DNA of 64,000 nucleotides. Source: Roseivirga sp. Lineage in GTDB: Bacteria > Bacteroidota > Bacteroidia > Cytophagales > Amoebophilaceae. Below are positions 1-60,410 of the stretch, piece after piece; within the stretch, counting starts at the first letter, position 1; the number at the start of each line of letters is the position of its first letter. Location: contig CP136537.1 of assembly GCA_051016155.1 (NCBI GenBank), forward strand, positions 192,935-256,934. Direction: 5' to 3'. A program made the position numbers and the translations under genes. The notes below the pieces were generated by a model, which searched no databases, was not told where the DNA came from, and worked only from the letters and a program-made list of their open reading frames with translations.

Positions 1-3000
1 TTAGAGCAGGAGCTGACGCAGCTTATCAGTACACAGAAGGACGCTGTCAGAAAACTACTGCTTACGCTGCCTAACCAAGAACGGGTAGCACAGCGACTGG
101 CCTACTACTTTGGTGAGGATACCTTCCAGCGCTTTATAGTCCTTTTGGCCCCTGAAGCCCATCTCTTTTTCCAGCAGTTCCTGATGGGGATGTCCTCTGT
201 ACAGCTGACGGCTATCTCAGATCGCTTAGACCCTTTTACCTGGCAAAAACACAACGAAGCAGCTGTGTTGGCCTATCTGCTCCAGAACCATGCCGCTCCA
301 TTCGATCCCCAAGCATGGGTCAAGTATCACCTGGCAAAGCTCAACCAAACATTAGGGCTAAGCCCCAGTCAAGTGCAGCAAGCCTTGGAAAAAATTGTAG
401 CAGCGAGCCTAGGACAAGCGCAGGCCTTCTCTCCTACTCCAGCAGACCAGTTAGATCAATACGCAACGCAGCTAAGTCAAGCATTGGGGGTGAGCGTGAG
501 TCGGGTACAGAAAGCCTTGAAAAAAATTGTACCAGTCCAAGCGCAGGACCTCTCTCCTACTCCAGCAGACCAGTTAGATCAATACGCAACGCAGCTCAGC
601 CAAGCATTGGGGGTGAGCCTCAGCCAAGTGCAAGCTGCTTTAGAAAAAATACTACCCGAAAATCTGGTTCAAGCCCAGGCCTTCTCTACTACTCCAGCAG
701 ACCAGTTGGCTCAGTATGCAACGCAGCTAAGTCAGACATTGGGGGTGAGCATGAGTCAGGTACAGAAAGCCTTGGAAAAAATTGTACCAGACAGTCTATT
801 CCAAACGCAGGCCCTCGCTCCCACTCCAGCAGGCCAGTTAGCTCAATATGCAACCCAGCTCAGCCAAGCGTTGGGCGTGAGCCTGGGCCAAGTGCAAGCT
901 GCTTTAGAAAAAGTTCTAACCAAAAGCTTAGGCTCAGCCCAGGAAGGGCCTTCTGCTACTACAACTCCGTTGACTCAGTACGCAACGCAGCTAAGTCAAG
1001 CATTGGGGGTGAGCCTCAGTCAAGTACAAGCTGCTTTCGAGAAAATACTACCCGAAAATCTGGTTCAAGCCCAGGCCTTCTCTCCTACTCCAGCAGACCA
1101 GTTGGCTCAGTATGCAACGCAGCTGAGCCAAGCCCTGGGGGTGAGCCTCAGTCAAGTGCAAGCTGCTTTCGAGAAAATACTACCCGAAAATCTGGTTCAA
1201 GCCCAGGCCTTCTCTCCTACTCCAGCAGACCAGTTAGATCAGTACGCAACGCAGCTAAGTCAAGCATTGGGGGTGAGCCTCAGCCAAGTGCAAGCTGCTT
1301 TCGAGAAAGTTCTAACCAAAAGCCTAGGCTCAGCCCAGGACGCGCCTGCTGCTACTACAGCTCAATTGGTTCAATACGCAACGCAGCTAAGTCAAGCATT
1401 GGGGGTGAGCGTGAGTCGGGTACAGAAAGCCTTGAAAAAAATTGTACCAGTCCAAGCGCAGGCCCTCTCTCCTACTCCAGCAGACCAGTTAGATCAATAC
1501 GCAACGCAGCTCAGCCAAGCGTTGGGGGTGAGTGTGAGTCAGGTGCAGTCTGCGTTGGAGAGTGTTCTACCCAAAAGTTTGATCCAAGCCCAGGGTGCAC
1601 CGTCTGTTACTACCGCTCTGCTGACGCAGTACGCATCTGAGCTAAGCCAGGCGCTGGGTGTGAGCCTGGGCCAAGTGCAAGCTGCTTTAGAAAAAGTTCT
1701 AACCAAAAGCCTAGGCTCAGCCCAGGACGCACCTGCTGCTACTACAGCTCCGTTGACTCAGTATGCAACGCAGCTCAGCCAAGCCCTGGGGGTGAGCCTG
1801 GGCCAAGTGCAAGCTGCTTTGGAGAAAGTCTTGCCGGCGGGCCTAGGGCAAGTGCAGGCTGCTTTGGAGAAAATACTGCCCACGAGCCTACGCCAAGCCC
1901 AGAACACACCTGCCGCTACTACAACTCTGTTGACTCAGTATGCAACGCAGCTCAGCCAAGCGTTGGGGGTGAGCCTCAGTCAAGTGCGGGCTGCTTTAGA
2001 AAAAGTTTTAACCAAAAGCCTAGGCTCAGCCCAGGACGCACCTGCTGCTACTACAGCTCCGTTGACTCAGTATGCAACGCACCTGAGCCAGGCGCTGGGG
2101 GTGAGCCTGGGCCAAGTGCAGGCTGCTTTTGAGAAAATACTGCCCACGAGCCTACGCCAAGCCCAGGACACACCTGCTTCGCTAGCCGCCTTACTGACTC
2201 AATACGCAGCGCAGCTCAGCCAAGCGCTGGGGGTAAGTACAGATGTACTCAAGGCAGCGCTGGACAAACAAAGCTTTGAACCGCAGCACGGTGCGTCAAG
2301 AGAACGCATCCAAGCGTCCCCTCTGCCTGAACAGGACAAAGTATTGCTTCCTGAAGAGGAAGCGTTGTCTCTCAAAGAGGAGAAAGAAGAAGAGTCGGTG
2401 CCACAAGAAGTATTCAAAGTATATGTACAAAATGGCGGCGTGGTGTTGTTATGGCCCTTCCTAGAACAGCTCTTTGAAGACCAGGGATTCATAAAAAAAC
2501 ATGCCTTTGTCAGTGCAAAAGCTGTCAATAATGCGGTGCATACCCTACAATACTTGGCCACAGGACAGCTAAATACTGCAGAGTGGAGGCTGCTACTGAA
2601 CAAACTGCTCTGTGGTCTTGCCCATGACGATGTGGTGGCGCCTGGCTATCGCTTTCAGGAAGTAGATGAAGCCCACGAAGCCCATGAAGCACTAGCTCCT
2701 GATCAGAACGGCTCCCCACCCAGCGAAGGGGAAGATGCAGGAACAGGCAACCAAGAGGAAAGCACAGAAAAGGAGGAAAGCGCAGAAAAGACGGTAGACT
2801 TGCCCCCAGAAGAGGCACAACTACAGAAAAATTGTCAGCAAGTACTGGAACTAGCCCTAGAAAAATGGGAAGGCCTGAAGGAGCTCGAAAAACAGGAGGC
2901 ATATGAAGCAGGTTTTACTGTAGAGGATTTTAAAGCATATTTTCTTAGACGGCACAGTATCCTGCGTCGTATTGAGGGCAAGGAGCTGAGCTATTGGCAC

Positions 3001-3117
3001 CTGACGTTGCCCTTGGCTCCTTATGACGCGCAAGCGCTACATCCTCCTTGGTCTATGGACAGATTGCGCCTGCCTTGGATGCAAGAAGACTTAGTGGTCT
3101 TTTGGCCGCTTGAGTGA
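1..3117 (+). CDS. contractile-injection-system (eCIS, Afp14/Pvc14-type) tape-measure-like protein, 5' end outside the window; the centre is ~15 tandem 41-44-aa repeats
   Basis: Frame 1 is open from nt 1 (LEQELTQLISTQKDAV...), so the TTG at 145 in the ORF track is not the true start. Stop is TGA at 3115-3117. The repeat unit is QYATQLSQALGVSLSQVQAALEKxLP...AQAxxPTPADQL. The C-terminal block VYVQNGGVVLLWPFLEQLFEDQGF...AVHTLQYLATGQ matches my recollection of the conserved C-terminal motif of CIS tape measure proteins (NAGlVLLxPFLxxLF...LLQYL). Confidence 0.6.
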   Translation, partial: LEQELTQLISTQKDAVRKLLLTLPNQERVAQRLAYYFGEDTFQRFIVLLAPEAHLFFQQFLMGMSSVQLTAISDRLDPFTWQKHNEAAVLAYLLQNHAAPFDPQAWVKYHLAKLNQTLGLSPSQVQQALEKIVAASLGQAQAFSPTPADQLDQYATQLSQALGVSVSRVQKALKKIVPVQAQDLSPTPADQLDQYATQLSQALGVSLSQVQAALEKILPENLVQAQAFSTTPADQLAQYATQLSQTLGVSMSQVQKALEKIVPDSLFQTQALAPTPAGQLAQYATQLSQALGVSLGQVQAALEKVLTKSLGSAQEGPSATTTPLTQYATQLSQALGVSLSQVQAAFEKILPENLVQAQAFSPTPADQLAQYATQLSQALGVSLSQVQAAFEKILPENLVQAQAFSPTPADQLDQYATQLSQALGVSLSQVQAAFEKVLTKSLGSAQDAPAATTAQLVQYATQLSQALGVSVSRVQKALKKIVPVQAQALSPTPADQLDQYATQLSQALGVSVSQVQSALESVLPKSLIQAQGAPSVTTALLTQYASELSQALGVSLGQVQAALEKVLTKSLGSAQDAPAATTAPLTQYATQLSQALGVSLGQVQAALEKVLPAGLGQVQAALEKILPTSLRQAQNTPAATTTLLTQYATQLSQALGVSLSQVRAALEKVLTKSLGSAQDAPAATTAPLTQYATHLSQALGVSLGQVQAAFEKILPTSLRQAQDTPASLAALLTQYAAQLSQALGVSTDVLKAALDKQSFEPQHGASRERIQASPLPEQDKVLLPEEEALSLKEEKEEESVPQEVFKVYVQNGGVVLLWPFLEQLFEDQGFIKKHAFVSAKAVNNAVHTLQYLATGQLNTAEWRLLLNKLLCGLAHDDVVAPGYRFQEVDEAHEAHEALAPDQNGSPPSEGEDAGTGNQEESTEKEESAEKTVDLPPEEAQLQKNCQQVLELALEKWEGLKELEKQEAYEAGFTVEDFKAYFLRRHSILRRIEGKELSYWHLTLPLAPYDAQALHPPWSMDRLRLPWMQEDLVVFWPLE
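319..2270 (+). repeat. in-frame tandem coding repeat, period 123-132 bp, about 15 units
   Basis: QYATQLSQALGVS recurs about 14 times. The blocks at 1009-1105 and 1141-1237 differ by a single nucleotide (period 132 bp). Confidence 0.95.
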
Positions 3118-3308
3118 GCTTCTGGTGGTCTAGGAGAAATTGGCTTGCGTTTTAAAGCTTACCTCAGCTGGAAGAACTGGCACAAGCCTGGAGACTTGCG
3201 CCAGTTGGAGAGCTACTGGTAGTCTAGGAGGCTGGCACAGAAAAAATATGCACCAAGGGCTGTCTTGTTAGCAGCAATACAATAGGGCAAGTTGCCCAGA
3301 TGAGCATT

Positions 3309-3701
3309 TTATCTCTCATAGGGGTTGACAAGCCTTAGCGAGGTAATATTTTTGAAATCGGCCACATTCCTTGTGATCAAAGTTAGGTCGTAGGCTAGAC
3401 TAGTGGCTGCAATGATGGCATCGGGCAGCTTGATGTTGTACTGCCTGCGCAGAGCAGCTGTTTGGTGCTTAATGGTCGTTTCTAGCCCCAATACCCATAC
3501 TTTATCTATAAAGCTGTGTAATAGCTTGCGGTCTTTTTGTGAAGGCGTTTTCCAACACAGTCATTCGATCTCGGTGATGACGGAAATGGCTGGCTGGGAT
3601 TCTTCGAAGAGGTGATCGATAAATTGCTCAGCCGAGGGTGGGAAATGCCTTTGCAGATAGTAAATAGCTATGTTGGTATCCCAGAGGTAGTTGATGTCCA
3701 T
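3309..3701 (-). pseudogene. vapC: PIN-domain VapC toxin interrupted by an in-frame TGA
   Basis: Minus-strand translation from the ATG at 3701-3699 gives MDINYLWDTNIAIYYLQ...SVITEIE*LCWKTPSQKDRKLL...LPDAIIAATSLAYDLTLITRNVADF. The stop (TGA, plus-strand tca at 3561-3563) is in frame between two halves of one PIN fold. The ORF track shows only the last 60 aa. Confidence 0.75.
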
Positions 3702-3901
3702 CCGTTGCGTAAATCTTTGAGTTGCTGATCCACTTCAGGCAAAGGCTGCTGGGTCATGGCTGCTTTGTACTTGGTCCAATCGATCGGAAGCAGGGGTGCT
3801 GTTGGATCCCTGCGTAGGCGAATGAGCTGCAGTCCCTCAAGGTCCTGGAGGAGTTTCAATGCCTTTTCGTCGATGATATCTATGCTGATAGTCTGCGTCA
3901 T
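3668..3901 (-). CDS. putative antitoxin partner of vapC (assigned by position)
   Basis: A small ORF (MTQTISIDIIDEKALKLLQDLEGLQLIRL...) whose 3' end overlaps the vapC ATG at 3701, a typical type II TA arrangement. The start was chosen at an internal Met; the ORF track start is 3937. Confidence 0.5.
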   Translation of the reverse strand: MTQTISIDIIDEKALKLLQDLEGLQLIRLRRDPTAPLLPIDWTKYKAAMTQQPLPEVDQQLKDLRNGWTSTTSGIPT

Positions 3902-4215
3902 AGGCTCGGTTATTTGTTTTACGAGGGAAAGATACAATAAGATATAAAATACTGTAGAAAGATGGGGAGTGAGCTGCTAGATGAGCATACAGAATTGGCG
4001 TGCATTTTAAAGCTTACAGCAGCATGAGGGCGCTCCAAAGCTGCATACTGACTTTAAGAAATAGCCCCTACAGCCCCATTTAAGGCTTTGGCAGATATAA
4101 ATTTTTGACTTTTGCAGCACTCTCGGCATGTATAACAGGCACAAGCCTGGAGACTTGCGCCAGTTGGGGGAACAACATGCTTTTGACACAGCCCCTCTTC
4201 TACTTATATCTTCTC

Positions 4216-6687
4216 CTACCTATGACTGGCCTTGAGCTCCTTCAGGAGCACATCAACTCCTGGCACTCGGCGCATGTGTTGCAGCGCTTCGCCAACAGCC
4301 CTCCGAACATGGGGCCTTGAAGGAGGACTAGTGATCTGTCTGAACCAAGCCAAACCGGCTTGCTGCTCTTTTTCGTTAGGGACGACGGCTAGGTATTGAC
4401 CCAAAGCCACTACCAAAGGTGTATCGTCTGTTCTGCCTAGTAGCTTGGTGAGCTTGCCTTGCAGCCAGGCGTACTTGTCGGGCTGCCGCACTTGGGTGTA
4501 GTAATGAGCCAGGGCCATGACCACGTCACGGTGGTCACACGCCTCTAAACTGGCCAGGTGGACCATCTTGTCAGGCGCATTACTGGTCGTTGCATACATA
4601 CGCAAAGCTGTGCTGACTACATGATAGGAGCGATCTTGCAGGCCTTGCTTGTACACCTCAACGTACTTGGCAGGGTCCTGAAGCGAGGCAAGTGCCCCCA
4701 AGCCAGCTGCCCTGACGGCAGCCTTGTCATCATGCTTGCTCAGTTCGATCAATAGGGCTTCTATGACGGCCATATCTTTGCCTGCATAGTGTCTAAAAGC
4801 ATCGACAGCCATCTTCCTAAAAAACCAAAAATCATCTTGGAGAGCTTCTTGTAGCACTTGGCAGCATATAGGATGGCGCATATGGCTGCTGCAATAAGCC
4901 AGTGCTTCTTGCTTGGCAAAGAAATCTTCTCCTTGGTAGTAGAGGTGCTGATATTCTTCTACTGACTTAGCATGTTCTACCACGCCGAGCAGCAAGGAGC
5001 GTTGATCTAGATGTACGAGCGCAGGAGGCTCAGGCAGCGTCCACGTAAATTCGTGGTAGGGCTGATCTACTACAACGGCATACTGTTGTGGTTCGCCTTG
5101 TGCCCAAACAGCGATGGTCAGCGGAAGCCTGTAAATGGGAGTGGTCGTCGCATTCTGCTGTTGCCATATTTTTACGGTGAGCGTCCCGTCATTGTAAGTA
5201 TGTGCCATCTTCAGCATCGGATGGCCCGCTGCAAAGAACCATTGGTTAAAAAACCAGTTGAGGTCTTCTCCTGTTATGTCTTCAAATGCTTTTCTCAGCT
5301 GGTGAATCTCTACTGTAGAGAAGGCATGCTTTTTAAGATAATGATGCAGGGCTTTGAAAAAGACCTCTTCTCCTACGTATTGACGCAGCATGTGCAGCAC
5401 CAAGGCGCCTTTGTTATAGCTATGCCTATCAAATAGCTCTCCCACATGAGCGTGGTGAAACCGAACCAGGTGGACTTGTTTATGGGTAGCTTCTTGAAGA
5501 TAGCCTTGCAATGTATACCATACGCTGAGGGCTCCAGCTTCCTTTCCATACTTATGTTCGCGCCACAAATGGTCTCCTAGACAAGCAAAGGCCTCATTCA
5601 GCGGCAAATGGGCCCAAGACTCACAAGTGACTAGGTTCCCAAACCAGTGATGAAATAGCTCATGGGCAATGATATCGTCATGATCATTATCCAGCAGCTG
5701 CCGATCGTCTACCTGAAGCATATCTGAAAAAACAACGGCAGAAGTGTTTTCCATGGCTCCCATCATGTGGTCCCTGACCACTATTTGGCTGTATTTGGGC
5801 CAAGGATAGGGATAGTCTAGTTTTTGCGAAAAGAACTCGAGCATCTCTGGCGTGTGGCCAAAAATGGCTCGGGCATGCTGCGCGTAGGCGGGCTCTACAT
5901 AGTAGTTGACTTCCAAGTCGTTCCATGTGTCTTGCACTTCGGCAAAGTCGCCTACTGCCAGCATGAATAAGTAAGGCGCATGTGGCAAGTCCATCTGCCA
6001 GCAGTCTGTTCTTGTTCCGTCATTGTTGCGCTTGGCATAGGCCAGCACGCCGTTAGAGAGTGTCTTCAAGTGCTGTTCCACAGTGATATACACCTCCTGC
6101 GTACACCGCTGGTTGGGCGCATCAATGGTAGGAAACCAGCAGGAGTTAGACTGTGGTTGGCCTTGTGTCCAAATTTGTCGAGGCCGGTCAGGGGCACTAC
6201 CATCTGGCTGGATAAAAAACAAACCCTGGCTTGAGAAAGGAGTAATGCTGCGATACTTACCCACCTCGTTGGGCTGTGCGGTGTAGGCAATGGCTACCTG
6301 ATAAGCAGTTTCGGCAGGCAGTGCTTGGCCTAAATCAATGATCAGCTTTCTACCATCATATGTATACTTCAAAGGGCTTTGTTGGGTCTGCTGTACCATG
6401 GCCACCTGATGAATGGCGAAACCGCAGGCGTCTAGTATTAAGTATCTTTGCGGATAACAGTGGGGTTGTAGTTTTAAGGTAGCTACCCCATGTAGGTGTT
6501 GGCGCTGCCAGTCAAAGCTTACTTCCAGCTTAGTGTGGAGCAGATCATGGTGCCTGGTGCACGTAGCCTGGTAAGGTGCTTGATGCCTTGTATGGGCACG
6601 GTTAGTGGCTATTTCTGTACTTTTGCACGCCCCTACGAGCAGCAACGCCCAGCAGAGTAGCCATGAGCTGAAAAAATGACGTGACAT
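4216..6687 (-). CDS. M1-family zinc aminopeptidase (aminopeptidase N-like), lipoprotein/secreted
   Basis: GAMENTS exopeptidase motif and HELFHHWFGNLVTCESWAHLPLNEAF (HExxH-18-E). The likely start is MSRHFFSSWLLCWALLLVGACKS (signal with lipobox Cys). Confidence 0.9.
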   Translation of the reverse strand: MSRHFFSSWLLCWALLLVGACKSTEIATNRAHTRHQAPYQATCTRHHDLLHTKLEVSFDWQRQHLHGVATLKLQPHCYPQRYLILDACGFAIHQVAMVQQTQQSPLKYTYDGRKLIIDLGQALPAETAYQVAIAYTAQPNEVGKYRSITPFSSQGLFFIQPDGSAPDRPRQIWTQGQPQSNSCWFPTIDAPNQRCTQEVYITVEQHLKTLSNGVLAYAKRNNDGTRTDCWQMDLPHAPYLFMLAVGDFAEVQDTWNDLEVNYYVEPAYAQHARAIFGHTPEMLEFFSQKLDYPYPWPKYSQIVVRDHMMGAMENTSAVVFSDMLQVDDRQLLDNDHDDIIAHELFHHWFGNLVTCESWAHLPLNEAFACLGDHLWREHKYGKEAGALSVWYTLQGYLQEATHKQVHLVRFHHAHVGELFDRHSYNKGALVLHMLRQYVGEEVFFKALHHYLKKHAFSTVEIHQLRKAFEDITGEDLNWFFNQWFFAAGHPMLKMAHTYNDGTLTVKIWQQQNATTTPIYRLPLTIAVWAQGEPQQYAVVVDQPYHEFTWTLPEPPALVHLDQRSLLLGVVEHAKSVEEYQHLYYQGEDFFAKQEALAYCSSHMRHPICCQVLQEALQDDFWFFRKMAVDAFRHYAGKDMAVIEALLIELSKHDDKAAVRAAGLGALASLQDPAKYVEVYKQGLQDRSYHVVSTALRMYATTSNAPDKMVHLASLEACDHRDVVMALAHYYTQVRQPDKYAWLQGKLTKLLGRTDDTPLVVALGQYLAVVPNEKEQQAGLAWFRQITSPPSRPHVRRAVGEALQHMRRVPGVDVLLKELKASHR

Positions 6688-6913
6688 AGCTTTCTTAAGA
6701 TGGATGGTCTTTAGTCTTGGTTGGGGACGCAGCTTTGTCAAAGCCTGCAAGATTTTCTATATTCAGGGACATGTAGTGATTGGTAACCACCAAGAGCAGG
6801 CTCCTATCCTATTCATGACGATTGCACCAAGTAAAGGTAGAGAATCTAGCACAGGTAAGAAAACGGACGACCTATGCGACTTGGGTCCATGGCATTATGA
6901 AGTGACTGATTAG

Positions 6914-7133
6914 TCCATTGGGTGACTAGGTGATTTTGTGATTGGGTGATTCAGTTCATTGGGTGACTAGGTGATTTTGTGATTGGGTGATTGATTCGTC
7001 CATTGGGTGACTAGGTGATTTTGTGATTGGGTGATTCAGTTCATTGGGTGACTGGTCAGTTCATTGGGTGATTTTGTGATTGGGTGATTGATTCGTCCAT
7101 TGGGTGACTGGGTGATTTTGTGATTGGGTGATT
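6914..7133. repeat. tandem array (about 5 units of 42-45 bp) of CATTGGGTGACTAGGTGATTTTGTGATTGGGTGATT
   Basis: Direct reading of 6914-7133. Each unit is itself made of GTGATT sub-repeats. The same GTGATT-rich motif is dispersed in many intergenic regions. Confidence 0.9.
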
Positions 7134-12955: not shown

Positions 12956-14143
12956 TCACCTTCTTCCTCTAGCAAATATGCTCGCTGCTACGATTACTAC
13001 TCCTGCTACCAAGCCACCACTTACGCCACTTAATAGGGCTATACGTAAAATATCATTTCTCCCTTGCTGCTGCTGTTGTTGTTGCTGTGCTGCTGCTCCA
13101 TCGCCATCTCCTACCGCCGCTGCTTCTGGGGTAGGCGTAACTACTGGCATTGTTGGCTGCTGCTGTTGTTGCTGTGCCTGGGCTACTGCTTCATCTCCGC
13201 CACTTCCTGCTGTCGCCGAGGTTGGGGCTGGTGCAGCTACTGGCTGCTGTTGTGCCTGGGCTACTCTATTATCATTGCTTCCTACTGCCACTATCTTTTC
13301 TTGCTGCTTTGTAGTAATAATATTACTCTTAAGCCGCTTTCTCACTTCTTTTGTGTCCTCGTCTGCGGAAGAAAATCCTTCGGACTGATAACCATCTTCG
13401 TCGCCGGTCTTCTTCATCCCACCTCGTAGTCCTTGCCTACCTATCACACACACAGCTTTAGAGAGACCTATGCGGATGCATAGGCGTTGCAACGCAGGCT
13501 GGTTAACTACTTGCTCTAACAAGGAAACTATATCTTTCCCTTTTTCACACACAACAGGATATGTAGCTCTAGCAGAACAACCAGGGAAACGCTTATCAGA
13601 GATATGCACTATCCACTGGTCACCTGCCTGCTTAAATTGGGCGGACCGCCCATCCGCAATTTTGAAGATAGTAGACTGCACTATTGCTGCAGCTGAACCA
13701 GTAGAAGGGTTTAGTTCAGACTTAGCTGCCCTTTTTAGAAGAGTAGGTGTCTGACATTTCCCTTCAGGCTGAATAGGTCTTTTTACTTGACCCCGAGGCT
13801 GCTGCTTGGCAGGTAAGACTGATGAGGTAGTAGCTACACTTTCCTGTGACTGTCGAGGAGACAGTCTTGATGAATTCTTAGTTGAGAGAGAGGTAGAAAG
13901 ACAGATGGATGCCGTTAAAGGAATTGCCTGGGCTGGCTCAGGAGACTTAGCTGGCCCTACTACATCTTCCGAGGAATTTGAGCACGATTGATCACGGTTT
14001 TTGCTATAATCGTCAAGATGCTCATCTGGATCAACCTTCATCTCATGGGCATAGCCATCTAGAGTAAGATTGGTACCGCAGCTTTGCAGCAACAGGCTGG
14101 TAAGCAGGACTATGGACAGGCTTTTTTGGTGTAGAGTATACAT
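12956..14143 (-). CDS. lineage-specific lipoprotein-signal protein with poly-Q tracts and a C-terminal TM anchor (B-type paralogue 2)
   Basis: MYTLHQKSLSIVLLTSLLLQSCGTN lipobox. Q8 and Q6 tracts. C-terminal ILRIALLSGVSGGLVAGVVIVAASIFARGRR. The N-terminus is paralogous to the ORF at 15539-15967. Confidence 0.6.
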   Translation of the reverse strand: MYTLHQKSLSIVLLTSLLLQSCGTNLTLDGYAHEMKVDPDEHLDDYSKNRDQSCSNSSEDVVGPAKSPEPAQAIPLTASICLSTSLSTKNSSRLSPRQSQESVATTSSVLPAKQQPRGQVKRPIQPEGKCQTPTLLKRAAKSELNPSTGSAAAIVQSTIFKIADGRSAQFKQAGDQWIVHISDKRFPGCSARATYPVVCEKGKDIVSLLEQVVNQPALQRLCIRIGLSKAVCVIGRQGLRGGMKKTGDEDGYQSEGFSSADEDTKEVRKRLKSNIITTKQQEKIVAVGSNDNRVAQAQQQPVAAPAPTSATAGSGGDEAVAQAQQQQQQPTMPVVTPTPEAAAVGDGDGAAAQQQQQQQQGRNDILRIALLSGVSGGLVAGVVIVAASIFARGRR

Positions 14144-14236
14144 TGCGTTTTTGACGATGTTTGCAGAGTTGTCAAATAGAGTCCATATTTCCCCTGAAGT
14201 CCTTCTTACTTGTCGTTGCAATCTAGAGTATCGAAT

Positions 14237-15175
14237 CTAAGAAGAAGGCTTTTTTAAGTAACGCTCTAACCTCTCTCCACATAGATTCTCCACCTTGTCG
14301 TCTCCTTTTTTGTTTAATCTTTCTATCTCTGTTTTTAGGAAACTATATCTGTCTTTGAAGAACTTTTTTTTTGCTTCATCGTTTCCACACTCAGAATGTT
14401 TATCTTTCGCTTCTTTTTTCAATTCTAGCAAGGGCATCCATACTCTTTCACAGTGTCTATCATAGCACTGTAGAAGGTATGCTGCGGATGCCTCTGGGGT
14501 AAGCTTTTTAAAATCATCACGAGACAAAGTATCAAAAATGTCGTCGAAGAAATTTGAATCAAGGGCTTTATCTGCCTTCTTTATAGCATCCTCTATTTTT
14601 TTCTCGAAGGTGTGACATATATCTTCCGTACTACCTCCAACAGATGGAATTCCTTCGTCGCTAACTTCTCTCGTTGGTTCGCTGCCGACTTGGCCATGAC
14701 CAGTATTGCTATTGATAGAATGCTCTCCCTTGTTTGTATCTACGTCTCTCTTTACATCGGAGTTCAGCGGTCCAAGACCAGCCTCTCTATTAGAGCTAGC
14801 TGTAGCTGCTATATTCATCAGCGGGTCTGTACAACCCCCTACTCTGCTCATCGAAGAGTCTATTATCGGTTCGAATTTATTATTTGATCCACCGAGCGGA
14901 TCTTGTTCAGACTTCTCAACAGTAGGTGCTTTTGTTACTGCCGTAGTTGAACAATCAGTAGGCGCTGCACTAAGATTAGGTGTTTTCGGTGGTGGTGACT
15001 TAAGGGGGGGAGCAGGAGGTCCTGTTGCTGCGCTGTTTCCTGAAGGCCCTAGCTTTTTCGGAAGGACATCTACTTTGTCGCTATCGCATTTGCTCACTGT
15101 CAGCACAGCAACAACAACGAACAGACTTAAACCATTTAATAATACTTTCTTGTTTTCTTTGCTTACGTCTCTCAT
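14237..15175 (-). CDS. lineage-specific signal-anchored acidic/low-complexity protein (A-type paralogue 1)
   Basis: MRDVSKENKKVLLNGLSLFVVVAVLTVSKC, then a Pro-rich stretch and a charged helical C-terminus. The N-terminus and upstream DNA are paralogous to 16106-17410. Confidence 0.6.
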   Translation of the reverse strand: MRDVSKENKKVLLNGLSLFVVVAVLTVSKCDSDKVDVLPKKLGPSGNSAATGPPAPPLKSPPPKTPNLSAAPTDCSTTAVTKAPTVEKSEQDPLGGSNNKFEPIIDSSMSRVGGCTDPLMNIAATASSNREAGLGPLNSDVKRDVDTNKGEHSINSNTGHGQVGSEPTREVSDEGIPSVGGSTEDICHTFEKKIEDAIKKADKALDSNFFDDIFDTLSRDDFKKLTPEASAAYLLQCYDRHCERVWMPLLELKKEAKDKHSECGNDEAKKKFFKDRYSFLKTEIERLNKKGDDKVENLCGERLERYLKKPSS

Positions 15176-15538
15176 AATGTTATTTCCTAGTATTATTTCT
15201 CTATTATTTCGATATAGGTCAATTACCTTGAACATTTTGCTTTACAACATTAATGACGCACTCGCAAGCGTGCAATACCTTGCTTTCGGATAGCACAAAA
15301 AGTGTCCTCAATAATGGCGTTGCTTTTTCAATATTTTTGAGACGTATTCACCCCAGAATTTAGCTCGAAATGAAGAGGAAAGTTTTTAGAGAAGAACTAT
15401 CAACATGGATTGACCATTGGTAGATCACCCCTATGACTTTTTTGAATATCTTTACAAAAAGATATTTGAGATGTTAGGTAGTTTTAGAACTTACCTCTCA
15501 TTAATAGTGACCTTGATTACTTATTTATCCCCAGACCA

Positions 15539-15967
15539 TCACTTTTCTTGTTCGTCATACTCTACGCATGTACCTAGGCCACAAGTTTCTAATAATTTAC
15601 ATAAGCATGTAGCTAATGAGGCCACAGGATCGTTCGCGTTGTTTTCTTCCACTACGCTCTCTAGAGCAGAATTCTCTTTAACCCTTACACCACCCTCTTT
15701 TTTTTCAGCTTCTTCTTTGCTTTTTCCATCTGCTACCGCAGGAGCTAGTTCTTCTTGCTGCTCTGTCCCTCCATCTTCTCCGCTTCTATCAGGGCTGCCT
15801 GATACAACTTCTTTAGTAGGGGAGGGTAGAGGAGATTCATCCAGCGGATCTCCGTCTTTAGTCATATAGCTACCCAGCGCAGGATTCATACCACAACTTT
15901 GTAGTAACAGAATGATCAATAAGGCTACTGGGACTACAGACAATCCTTTGTAACATTGGGTATACAT
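15539..15967 (-). CDS. small acidic lipoprotein (B-type paralogue 1)
   Basis: MYTQCYKGLSVVPVALLIILLLQSCGMN lipobox, E/D-rich remainder. Confidence 0.55.
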   Translation of the reverse strand: MYTQCYKGLSVVPVALLIILLLQSCGMNPALGSYMTKDGDPLDESPLPSPTKEVVSGSPDRSGEDGGTEQQEELAPAVADGKSKEEAEKKEGGVRVKENSALESVVEENNANDPVASLATCLCKLLETCGLGTCVEYDEQEK

Positions 15968-16105
15968 AGATTCTTGATTAACTTTTGACAAGATACACGG
16001 ATAAGATTCTAGGTAATATCTGGTATTCCAAGTGACTGAGAAGAAACTAGATGTCGGTTGGCTCGTGTCAAGCATAGTTCAGGGCTCTTGATATCATATC
16101 CATGG

Positions 16106-17152
16106 CTAACCTGCTCCCTTAGGTCTTTTTTTCTTTGCCTCCCCTTTCGCTAAGTTTCCCAGCAGAGTGGCAAAAAACTCCGATCTAAATTTTTCTTCTG
16201 CTTCTTTTTTCGATGTCTGACGTACTGAAAAAATCAAATCTTTAATTTCTTTTCGAATCTTTTCTATTTTCTCTGATCCTCTACCTTCGGTTGTCAATGA
16301 CGCCAAATTCTCCGCTTTGAATTCTTCTGCATCGTATTGATAAAGATCATCAGCTTGACTAAAGAATTCTACATACTTCTCAAGAAGATTTTTTAATCCA
16401 GTGTCTATATTGACAAGGCTTGCAAAAAAATCTTTAAGTGCCTGCTTCTCTTCAGGAATATTATCCGTAGGCAAAGTGTATTTGCATGTAGCAATAGCGT
16501 GTGTTAAAGACTGCTTTACTGTACTTAAGCATGACATCTTCCTCCTACACTCAGCTATTATTTTAGAAAGTTTATCACTGCCATCTCCCATATCTTTTTC
16601 TGCAAGTTCATCGCTGTCACCTTTCTCTTTCTCCAAAGGTGCTACCCCTTCTTCTTCCTCTTCCTCCTCACTAGCGAAATCAGCATTAGGTATTTCATCC
16701 TCACTATCCTCAAGGTTCATACTGCCTTCCCCGTCCTTATCCCCAAAAATAGAACCAGCGAGTGGTGTGGTAGTTTCTGAAGGTGATGCTGGTGGGATAT
16801 CACTTTCGTCTGAGGGGTACGTATGTGCCCCGTTGTCTGCTTGATAAGGATCGTTCTTATTTGCATCCTCATCATCCGTATTCCCAGAAAGAGATGCTAT
16901 CCCTGTTTCCTCTTCCTCCTCACTAGCGGAACCAGAAAGTGGTGTGGGAGTTACGCCCGCTGATACTCCTCCCCCTGGAGGCGGTGCTGGTTTTGGGGCA
17001 GGAGAGACAGTCGGCAATGCTCCTGAAGCTTTGCGAGTCTTCTGCCCAAAATTCTGATTTTCGCAAGCATTTGCTTCTAGCACAGCAACGACGATGAACA
17101 GGTTTAATCCATTCAATAATACTTTATTGCTTCTTTTGCTTTTGTTTTTCAC
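16106..17152 (-). CDS. lineage-specific signal-anchored acidic protein (A-type paralogue 2)
   Basis: (V)KNKSKRSNKVLLNGLNLFIVVAVLEANAC aligns with the A1 N-terminus. Long E/D runs (EEEEEEE). The start is uncertain: GTG 17152 was chosen by alignment with A1, while the ORF track start is 17281. Confidence 0.55.
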   Translation of the reverse strand: MKNKSKRSNKVLLNGLNLFIVVAVLEANACENQNFGQKTRKASGALPTVSPAPKPAPPPGGGVSAGVTPTPLSGSASEEEEETGIASLSGNTDDEDANKNDPYQADNGAHTYPSDESDIPPASPSETTTPLAGSIFGDKDGEGSMNLEDSEDEIPNADFASEEEEEEEGVAPLEKEKGDSDELAEKDMGDGSDKLSKIIAECRRKMSCLSTVKQSLTHAIATCKYTLPTDNIPEEKQALKDFFASLVNIDTGLKNLLEKYVEFFSQADDLYQYDAEEFKAENLASLTTEGRGSEKIEKIRKEIKDLIFSVRQTSKKEAEEKFRSEFFATLLGNLAKGEAKKKRPKGAG

Positions 17153-17596
17153 TGTATTTTTTCTGGATAGTATCACTATATCGAATACCTTCGAGCCACT
17201 TTTTTGCAATGCGATGTTAGTAATACGCTTGCAAACAAGCAATGTCTCACCTCCAACTAGCGCAAAAAGTGTCCTCAACAAAAGTGTTTTTGCATCAATG
17301 TTTTTGAGGGGTATTCACGGCAAAAATTAGCTCAAAATCAAAATGAAGAGGGGGTTTAAGAGAAGGATGTAAACAAGAATCGGCCATTTAGAAGTCGCCC
17401 CTATGACTTTATTGTACGCCTTTGCAGAAAGACTTCTGGAAGATTGGATGATTTACTGATGTGGTGATTTGATCTATTGGTTGACTAGATCATTTGGTGC
17501 TCTGTTCAGCTGTATGAAGTGAATGATCATTCTCGTAGCACTAGCACTCTTCAGCTTTGGGCAGGCTTTTGGTGACTTCAAAACGTGGCTGAGTTG

Positions 17597-25259: not shown

Positions 25260-26448
25260 TGTAGTAGTTGAAATTTAATCTGACATTGGTTAAATTGTAC
25301 AACAACTAAAACTACTACAATCATGAACTTAAACCAGAAGATTATCAAACCTAAAATTGGACTGCTTGAACTCGCTAAGAGCCTGGGCAACATCTCGGCT
25401 GCTTGCAAAACCATGGGGTACAGTCGAGACAGCTACTATCGTTTTAAAGAGCTCTTTGAGACAGGTGGACAAGAAGCATTGCTAGAGATCAGCCGAAAAA
25501 AGCCTATCCTGGCTAATAGAGTAGAGCCCTCTGTTGAAAAGGCGGTCGTTCAGATGGCTACTGACTTTCCTGCTTACGGACAACTTAGAGTCGCTAATGA
25601 GCTCAAAAAGCAAGGTATTATCGTTTCCCCTGGGGGCGTTCGCTCTATTTGGCTCCGAAATGACTTGAATAATATCAAAAAGAGACTTCAGGCCTTAGAA
25701 GCTAAGATGGTACAAGAAGGCCTTGTGCTCACTGAGAGTCAGCTCCAGGCCATGGAGAAGCATCAGCGTGATAAGGAAGCTCATGGAGAGATCGATACGG
25801 AGCATCCAGGCTATTTAGGCTGCCAGGATACCTACTATGTAGGACACTTCAAAGGTATTGGCAAGGTCTATGGTCAAGTCTACATTGACGCCTACACGCG
25901 TGTAGCAGATTGCAAGCTCTACAATGAGAAGACAGCGATAACGAGCGCTGATATGCTCAATGACCGCGTGCTCCCTTGGTATGAACAGCAAGGGGTGCCT
26001 ATCTTACGTATCCTAACAGATCGAGGAACAGAGTACAAAGGCAAACTGGAGAACCATGCCTATGAGTTGTTCCTATCAGTCGAGGGGATAAGTCATAGCA
26101 TGAGGCGGGCGTATTCTCCACAGAGCAATGGAATATGCGAGCGATTCAACAGGACGATGAAGCAGGAGTTCTTTGATTGTGCCATGGGCAAGAAGATATA
26201 TAGGAGTGTAGAGGAGTTACAGACGGACTTGGATGTATGGTTAGCTTATTACAACGGGGAGCGTCCGCATAGTGGACGTTATTGTTATGGGAAGACGCCG
26301 TTGGCTACGTTGCTCTCAAGTAAGCACCTGAGTGTGGAGAAGCATAATGAGATGATGCACCTGAAGGGCAGCTCAGACAGTTATGAGTTAGCAGACGCTA
26401 GAGCTAACTAAAATTATCTACTTGTCAGATTAAATACTGACTATTACA
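25260..26448 (+). mobile_element. IS481-family insertion sequence (~1.19 kb)
   Basis: Imperfect ~25-bp terminal inverted repeats: TGTAGTAGTTGAAATTTAATCTGACA at 25260-25285, and the reverse complement of 26423-26448 (TGTAATAGTCAGTATTTAATCTGACA). Termini are TGTA...TACA. There is a single transposase ORF. Confidence 0.85.
25323..26411 (+). CDS. IS481-family transposase (HTH + rve integrase core)
   Basis: N-terminal HTH ([29 protein letters not shown]). DDE core ([10 protein letters not shown]..., [36 protein letters not shown]). Confidence 0.9.
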
Positions 26449-41364: not shown

Positions 41365-43839
41365 TTGCTCGTATTTAGTCAGCTCCCAGCCATCACTGGA
41401 GGAAAAATCATTCAGTGCGCTACCGATAGGCCGATCGAGCACCTACTGCTGGATAGCAGAAAACTTGTGCTTGCTTCCAACAGCCTCTTTTTTGCCCTCA
41501 AAGGCCAGCGCCACGACAGCCACCAGTTTATCCCTGCAGTCTATGCACAAGGCGTCAGACAGTTTGTCGTAGAGCAGGAAGCCCCTGCTACCTACCAGCA
41601 GCTGCAAGGGGCGAACATCCTTCAGGTGCCCAACAGCATCGAGGCCCTACAGCAGTTAGCGGCCCACCACCGAAGTCAATATACCCTTCCTGTACTGGCC
41701 ATTACCGGCAGCAACGGTAAGACCATCGTTAAAGAGTGGCTCAGCCAGCTCTTGGCCCTCCAATACACTGTAGTCAAAAGCCCTAAAAGCTATAACTCTC
41801 AGACAGGCGTGCCACTTTCTGTGTGGCAGCTCCATGATACGCATCAGTACGGCATTTTTGAAGCAGGCATCTCCTTGCCTGGCGAAATGGCTAAGTTGGA
41901 ACAAGTGCTTCAGCCTACAGTGGGCTTGTTCACCAACATAGGCCCTGCACATGACCAAGGCTTTGCTACGCAGCAGCAGAAGCTGCAAGAAAAAGCCCTC
42001 CTCTTTAAAAATTGCCCTAGGATTCACTATTGCCTCGACCATACCCCTATCCATCAAGTGCTGCAAAAGCAATATCATGGCAAGGCTGAGCTGGTTACAT
42101 GGTCTTGGCAAGCCTCTGCCGCTAACTATCAGGTCCAAAGAAGGCTGTTGCCTACAAGTACCCAAACAGAAATCATCGTAACTACGCAGCAGCAACAGCA
42201 CACCTTCTTAGTCCCTTTCCAAGACGCTGTCTCGCTAGAGAACGTAGTCCATTGTATTGTTTTCTTGCTGCACGAAGGCTCGGATCCATCCCTGCTGCAG
42301 GCAGCCCTTGCCAAGCTCAGTGCAGTGCCCATGCGCCTGACCGTCAAGCAAGGCATCAACAACTGTCAAGTGATTGATGACACGTACAACAATGACTTGG
42401 TGGGGCTACAAGTGGCCTTAGACTTTATGGCACAGCAAAAGCAGTCCCTGAAAAGAACCGTAGTGCTATCTGACTTGCTACAAACAGGGATAAAGGCTGA
42501 AAAACTGTATCCACAAATCGCACAACTACTGCAGGCCAAGCACGTAGATCGGGTCATTGGTATTGGAGAAGAGATAACAACACAAGCAGCTGCTTTTGTT
42601 AAGCTAGAGGCACAATTTTACCCCCATACAGAAGCTTTCTTACAAGAGGCTGCTCAGCCCCCATTCAGCCATGAGCTAATACTGGTCAAGGGCGCCCGAC
42701 GCTTTGGCTTGGAACGCGTGGTCAATCGATTGCAACAAAAAATCCACAGCACAGTCCTTGAAGTCAACCTAGAGGCAGTCACGCACAACCTCAATTTTTT
42801 TCGTAGCCAACTGACCCCAGGCACTCGCCTGATGGCTGTGGTCAAAGCCTTGGCCTATGGCAGCAGTAGCTTTGAGATTGCCCACTTGCTGCAGTACCAT
42901 CGCGTGGACTACCTGGCCGTGGCCTATGCAGACGAAGGCGTATTGCTCCGAGAAAACGGCATCACCCTACCCATCATGGTGATGAACCCTACGCCAGAGA
43001 GCTTTGATAAGCTATTGGCCTACGACCTGGCGCCTGAGGTATACAGCTTAAAGCTACTGCAGGCTTTGCTTGATTTTCTGACATTCCAGGACCAACCTAT
43101 CGATATTCACCTGAAGCTAGAAACAGGCATGCATCGACTCGGTTTTAGTCAAAATGAGCTCGAAACGCTTGTCTCCTTACTGCGTGCCACGCCTCAGCTG
43201 CGTGTGGTAGGCATTATGAGCCACTTAGCGGCAGCAGGAGATGCTCAACAAGATGCTTATACGCAACAACAGTTGGCACTGTTCATGCGGCTAGCCCAGC
43301 ACATAGAAAAAAGCCTCAGCATACGTACCCTCAAGCATGTCCTTAATTCTGTTGGTACGCTGCGCTTTCCTGACTACCACTTGGACATGGTGCGGATGGG
43401 GATTGGTCTGTACGGCATAGGCATGGAGGCATTCACGCAGCAGCCCCTAGAAGTAGTTAGCACACTCAAAACGGTTATTTCTCAACTCAAAGTGATTCCC
43501 CCAGGCAGCACTGTAGGCTATGGCAGACAAGGCGTGGCTACACAAGAGATGCGCATCGCCACGATTGCCATTGGCTATGCCGACGGCTTTAACAGGGCCC
43601 TGGGCAATGGCCGTGGCCATGTCTGGATCAATGGCCATCGTGCACCTGTGGTGGGGCATGTTTGTATGGACATGAGCATGGTCGATGTGACGCATATTCC
43701 AGCCACTGAGGGCGATGAAGTCATCATTTTCGGTCCTCAACAGCCTATTACTGAGATGGCTGCTGCCATGCAAACCATTGCTTCTGAAGTATTGACCAAC
43801 ATCAGCGAGCGGGTCAAGCGGGTATACTATATCCCATAA
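41365..43839 (+). CDS. bifunctional UDP-MurNAc-tripeptide:D-Ala-D-Ala ligase (MurF) / alanine racemase (Alr) fusion
   Basis: The N-terminal half has the Mur ligase P-loop ITGSNGKT. The C-terminal half has VVKALAYGSS (PLP-Lys motif) and alanine-racemase-like MSMVDVT...ERVKRVY. This fusion is known in Bacteroidota. Confidence 0.9.
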   Translation: MLVFSQLPAITGGKIIQCATDRPIEHLLLDSRKLVLASNSLFFALKGQRHDSHQFIPAVYAQGVRQFVVEQEAPATYQQLQGANILQVPNSIEALQQLAAHHRSQYTLPVLAITGSNGKTIVKEWLSQLLALQYTVVKSPKSYNSQTGVPLSVWQLHDTHQYGIFEAGISLPGEMAKLEQVLQPTVGLFTNIGPAHDQGFATQQQKLQEKALLFKNCPRIHYCLDHTPIHQVLQKQYHGKAELVTWSWQASAANYQVQRRLLPTSTQTEIIVTTQQQQHTFLVPFQDAVSLENVVHCIVFLLHEGSDPSLLQAALAKLSAVPMRLTVKQGINNCQVIDDTYNNDLVGLQVALDFMAQQKQSLKRTVVLSDLLQTGIKAEKLYPQIAQLLQAKHVDRVIGIGEEITTQAAAFVKLEAQFYPHTEAFLQEAAQPPFSHELILVKGARRFGLERVVNRLQQKIHSTVLEVNLEAVTHNLNFFRSQLTPGTRLMAVVKALAYGSSSFEIAHLLQYHRVDYLAVAYADEGVLLRENGITLPIMVMNPTPESFDKLLAYDLAPEVYSLKLLQALLDFLTFQDQPIDIHLKLETGMHRLGFSQNELETLVSLLRATPQLRVVGIMSHLAAAGDAQQDAYTQQQLALFMRLAQHIEKSLSIRTLKHVLNSVGTLRFPDYHLDMVRMGIGLYGIGMEAFTQQPLEVVSTLKTVISQLKVIPPGSTVGYGRQGVATQEMRIATIAIGYADGFNRALGNGRGHVWINGHRAPVVGHVCMDMSMVDVTHIPATEGDEVIIFGPQQPITEMAAAMQTIASEVLTNISERVKRVYYIP

Positions 43840-60305: not shown

Positions 60306-60410
60306 CAGTGGGCTGATCTGGTTTTGCAGCTCCCTGCTACTACTGCCATCTTTGATAGGATAAAAAAAGGCACACGCCAAGAGATCAACTCCGCGTTGTT
60401 GATATCTAGT

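What the first reader, a model, noticed from the sequence alone, without database searches (positions are those of the whole stretch)
319..2270. Tape-measure-like protein built from about 15 recently amplified 41-44-aa repeats, a possible tunable length ruler
The central ~650 aa of the 990+ aa protein is a tandem array of one helical-looking unit (QYATQLSQALGVS[LV]SQVQAALEK[IV]LP….AQA.SPTPADQL). Several adjacent units are almost identical at the DNA level. For example, 1009-1105 versus 1141-1237 differ by 1 nt, and there is a partial internal duplication GLGQVQAALEK at about 1840-1870. That indicates recent unequal crossing-over. In phage tails and Afp-type particles the tape measure protein sets tube and sheath length. 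A repeat-built ruler could therefore change particle length in 41-44-residue steps. Repeats this regular are not a feature of the characterised tape measure proteins I know.
Basis: partly seen in the sequence, partly recalled or inferred. Interest (0 to 1): 0.7.

Follow-up and report, generated by a model that had tools for sequence, protein, structure and literature searches.

The report
Repeat-expanded injection-system tape measure protein
This gene encodes the length-setting "tape measure" protein of a phage-tail-like injection machine, and its middle has been stretched by 15 tandem copies of a 44-residue helical unit; that should give an unusually long particle, but the rest of the machine is not visible beside the gene.

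Summary
Frame 1 is open from base 1 to the stop at 3115-3117 (1038 codons; the N-terminus lies outside the window). Residues 108-777 are 15 tandem units: 13 good ones (ten of 44 aa, two of 41, one of 59) plus a degenerate unit at each end. The C-terminal 230 aa is a clear CIS tape-measure domain (Pfam PF19268, E=2.6e-33; hhalign 99.6%). The N-terminal 120 aa aligns with the central part of a tape measure from a complete CIS locus. So this is an Afp14/Cis14-type ruler about twice the usual length.

"Recently amplified" is only partly right. Three stretches of 95-162 nt are nearly identical, but the units overall show pS 0.54 and pN/pS 0.16, so the array is old, selected and still recombining. 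Hydrophobicity peaks at 3.67 residues, exactly 12 turns per 44 aa.

Published engineering of Alg14 gives about 0.22 nm per residue. That predicts about 10 nm per unit and a particle of about 250-270 nm.

No other protein among 1.84 billion representatives carries this array, so copy-number variation could not be tested. Downstream genes are housekeeping; a baseplate/fibre gene pair lies 52 kb away. I judge it a new variant of a known kind, of moderate interest.

The parts
1..321 (+). Visible part of the N-terminal/central family module of the tape measure protein. The ORF is open to the window edge, and about 135 aa of N-terminus are expected upstream.
   Evidence: There is no stop in frame 1 from base 1. 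BLASTP aligns aa 19-121 with aa 374-469 of a 953-aa CIS_TMP ORF from a CIS locus (L006), E=2e-07. hhalign gives a weak, collinear match of aa 2-51 to family columns 136-185, E=0.02.
322..456 (+). Unit 0: a degenerate 45-aa founder-like unit (KYHLAKLNQTLGLSPSQVQQALEKIV...PTPADQLD).
   Evidence: It aligns with the other units. Its first 14 residues lie inside the alignment to the L006 family module.
457..2199 (+). Units 1-13 of the tandem array: ten of 44 aa, two of 41 aa (457-579 and 1372-1494) and one of 59 aa (1759-1935). Consensus: QYATQLSQALGVSLSQVQAALEKILPxSLxQAQxxxxxPAxQLx.
   Evidence: Repeat structure. N-half pN/pS is 0.16 and C-half 0.77. There are two families of C-halves, PTPADQL in the 5' part and APAATTAPLT in the 3' part.
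1794..1897 (+). A 45-nt tandem duplication inside unit 11, adding 15 aa (GLGQVQAALEK...).
   Evidence: Tandem Repeats Finder gives period 45, 2.3 copies, 79% matches. Translation.
2200..2418 (+). Degenerate unit 14 (QYAAQLSQALGVSTDVLKAALDK...) followed by an acidic linker.
2419..3114 (+). C-terminal CIS_TMP domain (VYVQNGGVVLLWPFL ... LPWMQEDLVVFWPLE).
   Evidence: Pfam PF19268, E=2.6e-33. hhalign probability 99.6%, E=6e-25. It shares the 29 invariant columns of the six-sequence alignment A5 with its five homologues. AlphaFold2 with 45 sequences gives pLDDT 84.6 and pTM 0.78.
2641..2814 (+). An acidic insertion of about 52 aa in the C-terminal domain, absent from the five homologues aligned in A5. 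It contains an 18-nt tandem duplication at 2755-2790.
   Evidence: Gaps in the five homologues of A5 and in the hhalign alignment to the family profile. AlphaFold2 pLDDT is 53-64 here against above 90 on either side. Tandem Repeats Finder row 2755-2790.
3115..3117 (+). Stop codon of the tape measure ORF.

Best explanation
The ORF is the tape measure (Afp14/Cis14-type) protein of a contractile injection system in a Roseivirga sp. genome. Its central helical region has been expanded to about 670 aa by tandem amplification of a 44-residue unit. Each unit is an amphipathic helix-turn-helix half (QYATQLSQALGVSLSQVQAALEK) followed by a Pro/Thr/Ala-rich linker half.

Shown: the array itself, the family identity of both flanks, purifying selection on the helical half, and ongoing recombination among units.

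Inferred: as in other tape measures, the C-terminal domain docks in the baseplate/spike hub, the central part lines the tube lumen, and tube and sheath polymerise until its end is reached. The array therefore adds length. At the published 0.216-0.229 nm per residue, each unit adds about 10 nm. A protein of about 1170 aa would then give a particle of about 250-270 nm, roughly twice AlgoCIS, with more lumen for cargo. Unequal crossing-over between units would change length in steps of 44 aa, or of the 132-aa three-unit super-repeat.
For: - Family identity: Pfam CIS_TMP E=2.6e-33. hhalign 99.6% to the family's C-terminus. Shares the invariant columns of the six-sequence alignment A5 with five homologues. 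Confident fold of the C-domain. N-terminal segment homologous to a CIS_TMP ORF sitting in a locus with Pvc16_N, VgrG, PAAR and AAA genes.
- Size: typical family members are 460-610 aa with no repeats. The Pfam model is 463 positions long.
- Array and selection: 15 units. N-half pS 0.54, pN 0.089. ORF intact over 1038 codons.
- Recent exchange: three stretches of 95-162 nt with 2 mismatches each. That 1.2-2% divergence is about the same as the 1.1% between this strain and the SRR22824325 strain.
- Helical character: AlphaFold2 of three units is all-helical, though at low confidence. The dominant hydrophobic period is 3.67 residues, which is 44/12, and only 0.85% of shuffles reach it.
- Ruler function: Alg14 duplication and deletion changed AlgoCIS length from 121 nm to 138, 161 and 89 nm, and changed the cargo load. 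The slope across CIS types is 0.2156 nm per aa with R2 0.84.
Against: - No CIS structural gene lies next to the ORF in the window. Downstream are a toxin-antitoxin cassette, an M1 peptidase, PyrH and RsgA.
- The only other CIS-like genes, a baseplate wedge and a fibre-like protein, are 52 kb away on the other strand and also look isolated.
- The protein is absent from a 15-billion-protein collection that does hold its neighbours from the same NCBI record. The depositor's annotation may therefore treat it as a pseudogene, or there may be a defect upstream of the window.
- Glycine and proline in every unit and the low AlphaFold2 confidence leave the extension per residue unknown.
- No second allele was found, so tunability is untested.
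Confidence: 0.6

Rival explanations
1. Relic gene. The CIS cluster of this IS-rich genome has been broken up. The tape measure ORF is an orphan that no longer builds particles, and the array is drifting by replication slippage and unequal crossing-over.
For: - Downstream genes are housekeeping.
- The baseplate/fibre pair is isolated 52 kb away.
- The MAG carries at least 13 IS481 copies.
- The adjacent PIN toxin has a nonsense mutation here but is intact in a sister strain.
- The protein is missing from the collection that holds its neighbours.
Against: - The reading frame is intact for 1038 codons through 2 kb of repeats.
- pN/pS is 0.16 in the helical half despite pS of 0.54.
- The C-domain shares the invariant columns of the six-sequence alignment A5 with five homologues and folds confidently.
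- There are no annotated pseudogenes in the next 37 kb: 33 locus tags correspond to 32 proteins plus one tRNA.
- Dispersed CIS gene pairs also occur in other genomes, such as tube plus TMP C-domain in L004/L005.
Confidence: 0.2
2. Assembly artefact in copy number. The units are real, but their number or order is wrong because near-identical stretches were mis-joined.
For: The short-read assembly breaks inside the array at window 2137. Near-identical stretches of 95-162 nt, spaced 132, 309 and 915 nt apart, could support a collapse or expansion.
Against: Most units differ by 6-48% at the DNA level, so they are individually distinguishable. The frame is kept throughout. The source contig is 1.45 Mb with clean neighbouring genes. 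An artefact would give identical copies, not a graded mosaic with selection signatures.
Confidence: 0.1
3. The array is not mainly a ruler but a multivalent scaffold. Each helix-turn-helix-like unit would be a docking site, for example for lumen cargo, an assembly chaperone or nucleic acid, so that copy number sets stoichiometry rather than length.
For: The unit N-half resembles the helix-turn-helix core. Many HTH Pfam models give summed scores above their cut-off. The nearest repeat-bearing proteins elsewhere are small secreted Actinobacteria-like proteins with 3-6 LAxALGVSxxKVxAAL motifs. In AlgoCIS, cargo load scales with tube length.
Against: No single HTH stretch passes on its own (stretches = 0), so the scores are sums of 14 weak matches. 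The position of the array, between the family's central module and C-domain, is exactly the region that acts as ruler in Alg14. This reading does not exclude a ruler role.
Confidence: 0.1

Closest known systems
Alg14, tape measure of AlgoCIS (Algoriphagus machipongonensis), including its engineered duplication mutants
   Same: Both come from Bacteroidota and share the architecture of mixed N- and C-terminal regions with an alpha-helical middle. Duplicating middle helices lengthens the particle at about 0.23 nm per residue and raises cargo load. The window's array is a natural equivalent of that experiment.
   Different: Alg14 is 526 aa, and no natural tandem array is reported for it. Here the middle is about 670 aa, made of 15 units.
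Afp14 / Pvc14 / Cis14 (Pfam PF19268 CIS_TMP)
   Same: The C-terminal domain matches above the curated cut-off and runs to the last residue.
   Different: Family members inspected are 460-610 aa without repeats and sit inside CIS loci. This one is at least 1038 aa, has a 52-aa acidic insertion in the C-domain, and has no CIS neighbour downstream.
Phage tape measure proteins built from variable numbers of an 11-aa unit (Belcaid, Bergeron and Poisson 2011)
   Same: Both are rulers made of tandem units whose number changes by duplication and loss. 44 aa is four times 11, and the array shows a 3.67-residue (11/3) hydrophobic period.
   Different: These are different protein families. The phage family PF10145 scores 31.7 bits here, below its 33.2-bit cut-off. 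The unit here is 44 aa with a helix-turn-helix-like half and a proline-rich half, and power at the 11-residue period itself is low.
The 953-aa and 351-aa CIS_TMP ORF pair in Logan contig SRR3939184_204 (L006)
   Same: It is a long tape measure in a complete-looking CIS locus. Its central module aligns with window aa 19-121, and the C-domain of the 351-aa ORF P0247 is 41% identical over the aligned 86 residues.
   Different: Its length is not produced by tandem repeats: there is no repeat at the DNA level and no internal repeat detectable by BLASTP.

Membership tests
CIS tape measure protein (Pfam PF19268, Afp14/Cis14) | Conserved C-terminal domain (NAGLVLLWPFL ... LNKxLCGL ... LPWM..W) reaching the C-terminus | tested here: met
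   Pfam E=2.6e-33, 116.4 bits against a 27.8-bit cut-off. hhalign 99.6%, E=6e-25, template columns 352-514 of 515. The window sequence and five homologues share 29 invariant columns in alignment A5.
CIS tape measure protein (Pfam PF19268, Afp14/Cis14) | Central family module (RRLxRQF... region, profile positions about 136-273) | tested here: met
   BLASTP of aa 19-121 against L006 CIS_TMP aa 374-469 gives E=2e-07. The hhalign match to columns 136-185 is collinear but weak, E=0.02.
CIS tape measure protein (Pfam PF19268, Afp14/Cis14) | N-terminal domain (profile positions 1 to about 135) | not testable with these tools
   The ORF runs off the left edge of the window. No collection returned the upstream DNA.
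CIS tape measure protein (Pfam PF19268, Afp14/Cis14) | Encoded within a CIS gene cluster (sheath, tube, spike, baseplate, AAA ATPase, cap) | tested here: inconclusive
   Downstream genes are a toxin-antitoxin cassette and housekeeping genes. A Baseplate_J/wedge gene and a fibre-like gene lie at 55246-59773 on the other strand. The upstream region is outside the window.
CIS tape measure protein (Pfam PF19268, Afp14/Cis14) | Protein length determines particle length | not testable with these tools
   This needs electron microscopy of particles. It has been shown only for Afp14 and Alg14 in the literature.
Phage tape measure / minor tail protein (Pfam PF10145 PhageMin_Tail) | Score above the curated cut-off | tested here: not met
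   31.7 bits against a 33.2-bit cut-off, on the repeat region aa 181-346. There are no PHROG hits for either end of the protein.
Helix-turn-helix DNA-binding domains (HTH_23, HTH_29, GntR, TrmB and others) | At least one complete domain match | tested here: not met
   Every HTH family is listed with 0 stretches passing on its own. The whole-protein scores are sums over 14 units that each match only the 20-residue helix-turn-helix core.
Repeat family of small secreted LAxALGVSxxKVxAAL proteins (Actinobacteria-like) | Shared repeat unit along its whole length | tested here: not met
   The best hit is 71 bits over 4 stretches. Matches mostly cover unit positions 2-28 only. These proteins are 170-380 aa with signal-peptide-like N-termini and no CIS_TMP domain.

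The most novel reading that the evidence does not exclude
The array is a naturally evolvable, quantised ruler. Recombination between the 44-aa units, which stay in hendecad register (12 helical turns each), adds or removes about 10 nm of tube and sheath per unit. Sister strains would then make injection particles of different length and cargo capacity. The most recent unit exchanges (1.2-2% divergence) are as young as the split between the two strains seen in public reads (1.1%).
Probability: 0.2. Interest if true: 0.7.

Novelty: new variant of a known kind. Interest (0 to 1): 0.45.

Why it matters
Tape measures are the only known length-setting device of phage tails and injection particles, and how CIS length is set is described as "not well understood". 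Engineering has just shown that lengthening the CIS tape measure lengthens the particle and increases its cargo. This gene would be a natural example, with a modular unit that could be counted, swapped and tested. That makes nm per residue, helix register and the maximum workable length directly measurable. It could also offer ready-made spacer modules for programmable injection systems. If the gene turns out to be an orphan relic, it still shows how such arrays arise from the family's own central helices.

Tried and rejected
- Searching the whole protein against the 5.8-billion-cluster database gave nothing. The C-terminal 305 aa gave only six distant CIS_TMP hits.
- A profile of the 15 units against 1.84 billion representatives found no protein with this array, only motif-level matches in small secreted proteins. 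I rejected these as relatives.
- Back-translated scans found nothing close. GTDB genomes returned only a 36%-identical Chitinophaga TMP. JGI metagenomes (two scans) and IMG/VR returned nothing. Comparison of repeat number across strains was therefore impossible.
- Attempts to reach the DNA upstream of the window, through exact look-ups of the M1 peptidase and the 77-aa protein, returned only short Logan contigs.
- The unit profile against the family alignment by hhalign was not significant. The idea that the unit descends from the family's central module therefore rests only on the pairwise alignment that runs into unit 0.
- I suspected internal module duplications in the 953-aa L006 protein, but BLASTP and TRF did not support this.
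- PDB sequence searches and a Foldseek search with the confident C-domain model found no solved counterpart.
- The Chitinophaga genes upstream of its TMP show no similarity to the window's baseplate/fibre pair.
- The literature library holds nothing on Roseivirga CIS, on the two SRA runs, or on tandem repeats in CIS tape measures.
Full report
**1. What is in the sequence**

Frame 1 of the + strand is open from base 1 to a stop at 3115-3117, giving 1038 codons. The true start must lie upstream of the window. Tandem Repeats Finder reports arrays with periods 132, 264 and 396 nt across 415-2234, with scores up to 1513.

Splitting the protein at the QYA motif gives 14 units, preceded by one degenerate unit:
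- u0: aa 108-152, degenerate.
- u1-u13: aa 153-733. Ten are 44 aa, u1 and u8 are 41 aa, and u11 is 59 aa.
- u14: starts at aa 734, degenerate.

Unit u11 is 59 aa because of a 45-nt internal tandem duplication at 1794-1897. The consensus is QYATQLSQALGVSLSQVQAALEKILPxSLxQAQxxxxxPAxQLx. Six columns are invariant across all 15 units.

**2. How recent is the array?**

Three pairs of stretches are nearly identical:
- 456-617 vs 1371-1532: 162 nt, 2 mismatches.
- 1004-1105 vs 1136-1237: 102 nt, 2 mismatches.
- 1681-1775 vs 1990-2084: 95 nt, 2 mismatches.

Otherwise units are 52-94% identical at the DNA level. In the first 25 codons of the units, the mean pairwise synonymous difference is 0.54 and the non-synonymous difference 0.089, a ratio of 0.16. 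In the last 16 codons the ratio is 0.77.

The N-halves and C-halves also group differently. PTPADQL-type tails sit in the 5' part of the array and APAATTAPLT-type tails in the 3' part, and the N-halves are mosaic across both. TRF also sees a three-unit (396-nt) super-repeat.

The array is thus old. Its helical half is under purifying selection, and it is still being reshuffled by duplication or gene conversion. The youngest events (1.2-2% divergence) are about as recent as the 1.1% divergence between this genome and a sister strain seen in SRR22824325.

**3. What the protein is**

Pfam places it in CIS_TMP (PF19268) at E=2.6e-33, 116 bits against a 27.8-bit cut-off. A profile comparison aligns residues 807-1038 with the last 163 columns of a five-member family alignment, up to the final column, at probability 99.6% and E=6e-25. 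The alignment has two insertions in the window's protein. In the six-sequence alignment A5, the window sequence and five homologues share 29 invariant columns.

AlphaFold2 with a 45-sequence alignment folds this domain with mean pLDDT 84.6 and pTM 0.78. The 52-aa acidic insertion forms a low-confidence loop. The fold has no counterpart in the PDB, by sequence or by Foldseek.

At the other end, residues 19-121 align with residues 374-469 of a 953-aa CIS_TMP ORF at E=2e-07. That ORF lies in a locus with Pvc16_N, VgrG, PAAR and AAA genes. A weak hhalign match places residues 2-51 on family columns 136-185. This implies that about 135 residues are missing upstream, for a total near 1170 aa.

Family members I could read are 460-610 aa and contain no repeats. 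The Chitinophaga filiformis homologue (609 aa) matches the whole Pfam profile and is flanked by eCIS_core toxins and an AAA ATPase.

**4. Nature of the unit**

The many HTH Pfam families listed all have zero stretches passing on their own. They arise by summing 14 weak matches to the 20-residue helix-turn-helix core (LSQALGVSLSQVQAAL).

A profile of the 15 units searched against 1.84 billion representative proteins found 174 hits. None was better than 71 bits. The top hits I retrieved were mostly small secreted proteins, with a few larger unrelated repeat proteins. The small ones carry 3-6 LAxALGVSxxKVxAAL motifs and the same unspecific HTH signals. None of the retrieved hits is a CIS protein. 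I treat this as a shared alpha-alpha hairpin motif, not as homology.

AlphaFold2 of three units is all-helical but of low confidence, with pLDDT 52.5. The hydrophobicity spectrum of six consecutive 44-aa units peaks at 3.67 residues, which is exactly 44/12. Only 0.85% of within-unit shuffles reach that power. The amphipathic stripe therefore stays in register from unit to unit, with hendecad-type spacing. The 15-aa insertion, about 4.1 turns, nearly preserves the register.

The alignment to the L006 module runs into the first helix and the G-L-S turn of unit 0. This suggests that the array grew out of the family's own central helices. A profile-profile test of that idea was not significant.

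**5. Mechanism**

It is established that Afp14 is involved in regulating Afp length (cited). It is also established that duplicating or deleting central alpha-helices of Alg14 changes AlgoCIS length from 121 nm to 138, 161 or 89 nm. The Alg14 coefficient is 0.229 nm per residue, the cross-system slope is 0.2156 nm per aa (R2 0.84), and cargo load changes in parallel.

By inference, the array here is extra ruler. At these coefficients each unit adds about 9.5-10 nm and the 670-aa array adds about 145-153 nm. A 1173-aa protein gives about 253-269 nm. Unequal crossing-over would change length in unit steps. Repeat-built rulers are already known in phages, where the unit is 11 aa. The principle is therefore not new. 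What is new is a long, regular 44-aa array in the CIS family.

**6. Context and caveats**

Exact protein look-ups identify the source as a Roseivirga sp. MAG, on a 1,446,063-bp contig with proteins numbered XWN353xx.

Downstream of the ORF lie a toxin-antitoxin cassette bracketed by 30-46-nt direct repeats, then an M1 peptidase, PyrH, RsgA, an EamA transporter, MenA and FabD. No CIS gene follows. A 1273-aa Baseplate_J/wedge protein and an overlapping 239-aa protein with a weak tail-fibre match lie at 55246-59773 on the minus strand. They are also without CIS neighbours.

The genome is rich in IS481, with at least 13 copies. The tape measure protein itself is absent from the 15-billion-protein collection, although XWN35317-35319 and other neighbours are present. 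The depositor's annotation may therefore not call it as a protein, which would fit a defect upstream of the window.

Several points argue against decay:
- The frame is intact.
- The units carry a selection signature.
- The C-domain is conserved.
- The next 37 kb holds 32 proteins and one tRNA for 33 locus tags, so no annotated pseudogenes.

Dispersed CIS gene pairs also exist elsewhere. One example is a lone tube gene next to a stand-alone 167-aa TMP C-domain amid housekeeping genes in two JGI contigs.

**7. Assembly**

A short-read Logan contig from SRR25441019 is 100% identical to window 2137-6942 and ends inside unit 13. This confirms the 3' boundary and shows that short reads cannot span the array. 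Unit divergence and the preserved frame argue against a gross artefact. The exact unit count still needs long reads.

**8. Verdict**

This is a real, selected, repeat-expanded member of the CIS tape measure family: a new variant of a known kind. The ruler interpretation is plausible and now has direct experimental precedent. Cluster context, expression and copy-number variation remain untested. No relative with the array was found in any collection searched.

Noticed in passing
window 3138-4167: A PIN-toxin/antitoxin cassette is bracketed by direct repeats. An exact 30-mer occurs only at 3179-3208 and 4138-4167, inside longer 87%-identical copies. The PIN ORF has a TGA nonsense at about 3562 in this genome but is intact (130 aa) in a 98.9%-identical strain (Logan SRR22824325, L003).
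   Followed up: partly
window 55246-59773 (- strand): A 1273-aa Baseplate_J/baseplate-wedge protein (XWN35367; PHROG 33902 E=4.8e-25) overlaps a 239-aa 'adhesin' (XWN35366) that has a weak tail-fibre match. The pair is isolated: an APH kinase on the + strand follows at 60324. It may be a second fragment of the same injection system, 52 kb from the tape measure gene and on the opposite strand.
   Followed up: partly
window 25323-26411 and 51786-52292: An IS481-family transposase has at least 13 near-identical copies annotated in the same MAG, and there is an IS4/IS5-type transposase fragment (DUF4096). The genome is IS-rich, which could explain the scattered CIS genes.
   Followed up: no
window 12956-17281 (- strand): G+C drops to 0.41 at 14-18 kb, against 0.47-0.53 elsewhere. 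Three ORFs of 332-421 aa there have no Pfam or PHROG match.
   Followed up: no
L004 9533-10504 and L005 1853-2824 (JGI metagenome contigs): A stand-alone 167-aa CIS_TMP C-terminal-domain protein sits directly after a lone Phage_T4_gp19 tube gene, surrounded by housekeeping genes. Many family hits are such 165-175-aa proteins on long contigs, from Lewinella, Flavobacterium, Oceanihabitans and Pseudomonas batumici.
   Followed up: partly
L006 4567-8593 (Logan SRR3939184_204): A CIS locus carries two consecutive CIS_TMP ORFs. One is 953 aa and matches Pfam profile positions 4-273. The other is 351 aa and matches positions 139-463. This is either a split long tape measure or two paralogues. No tandem repeats were found.
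   Followed up: partly
window 2641-2814: An acidic insertion of about 52 aa (EVDEAHEAHE...EESTEKEESAEK) lies in the otherwise conserved C-terminal domain and is absent from the five homologues aligned in A5. It is predicted to be a disordered loop and contains an 18-nt tandem duplication at 2755-2790.
   Followed up: partly
window 41365-43839: A single 824-aa ORF fuses a Mur-ligase (MurF-like) region to a complete alanine racemase.
   Followed up: no
proteins P0037-P0046 and others: There is an uncharacterised set of small (170-380 aa), high-G+C, apparently secreted proteins. They are built from 3-6 copies of an LAxALGVSxxKVxAALxK motif and have no specific Pfam family.
   Followed up: partly
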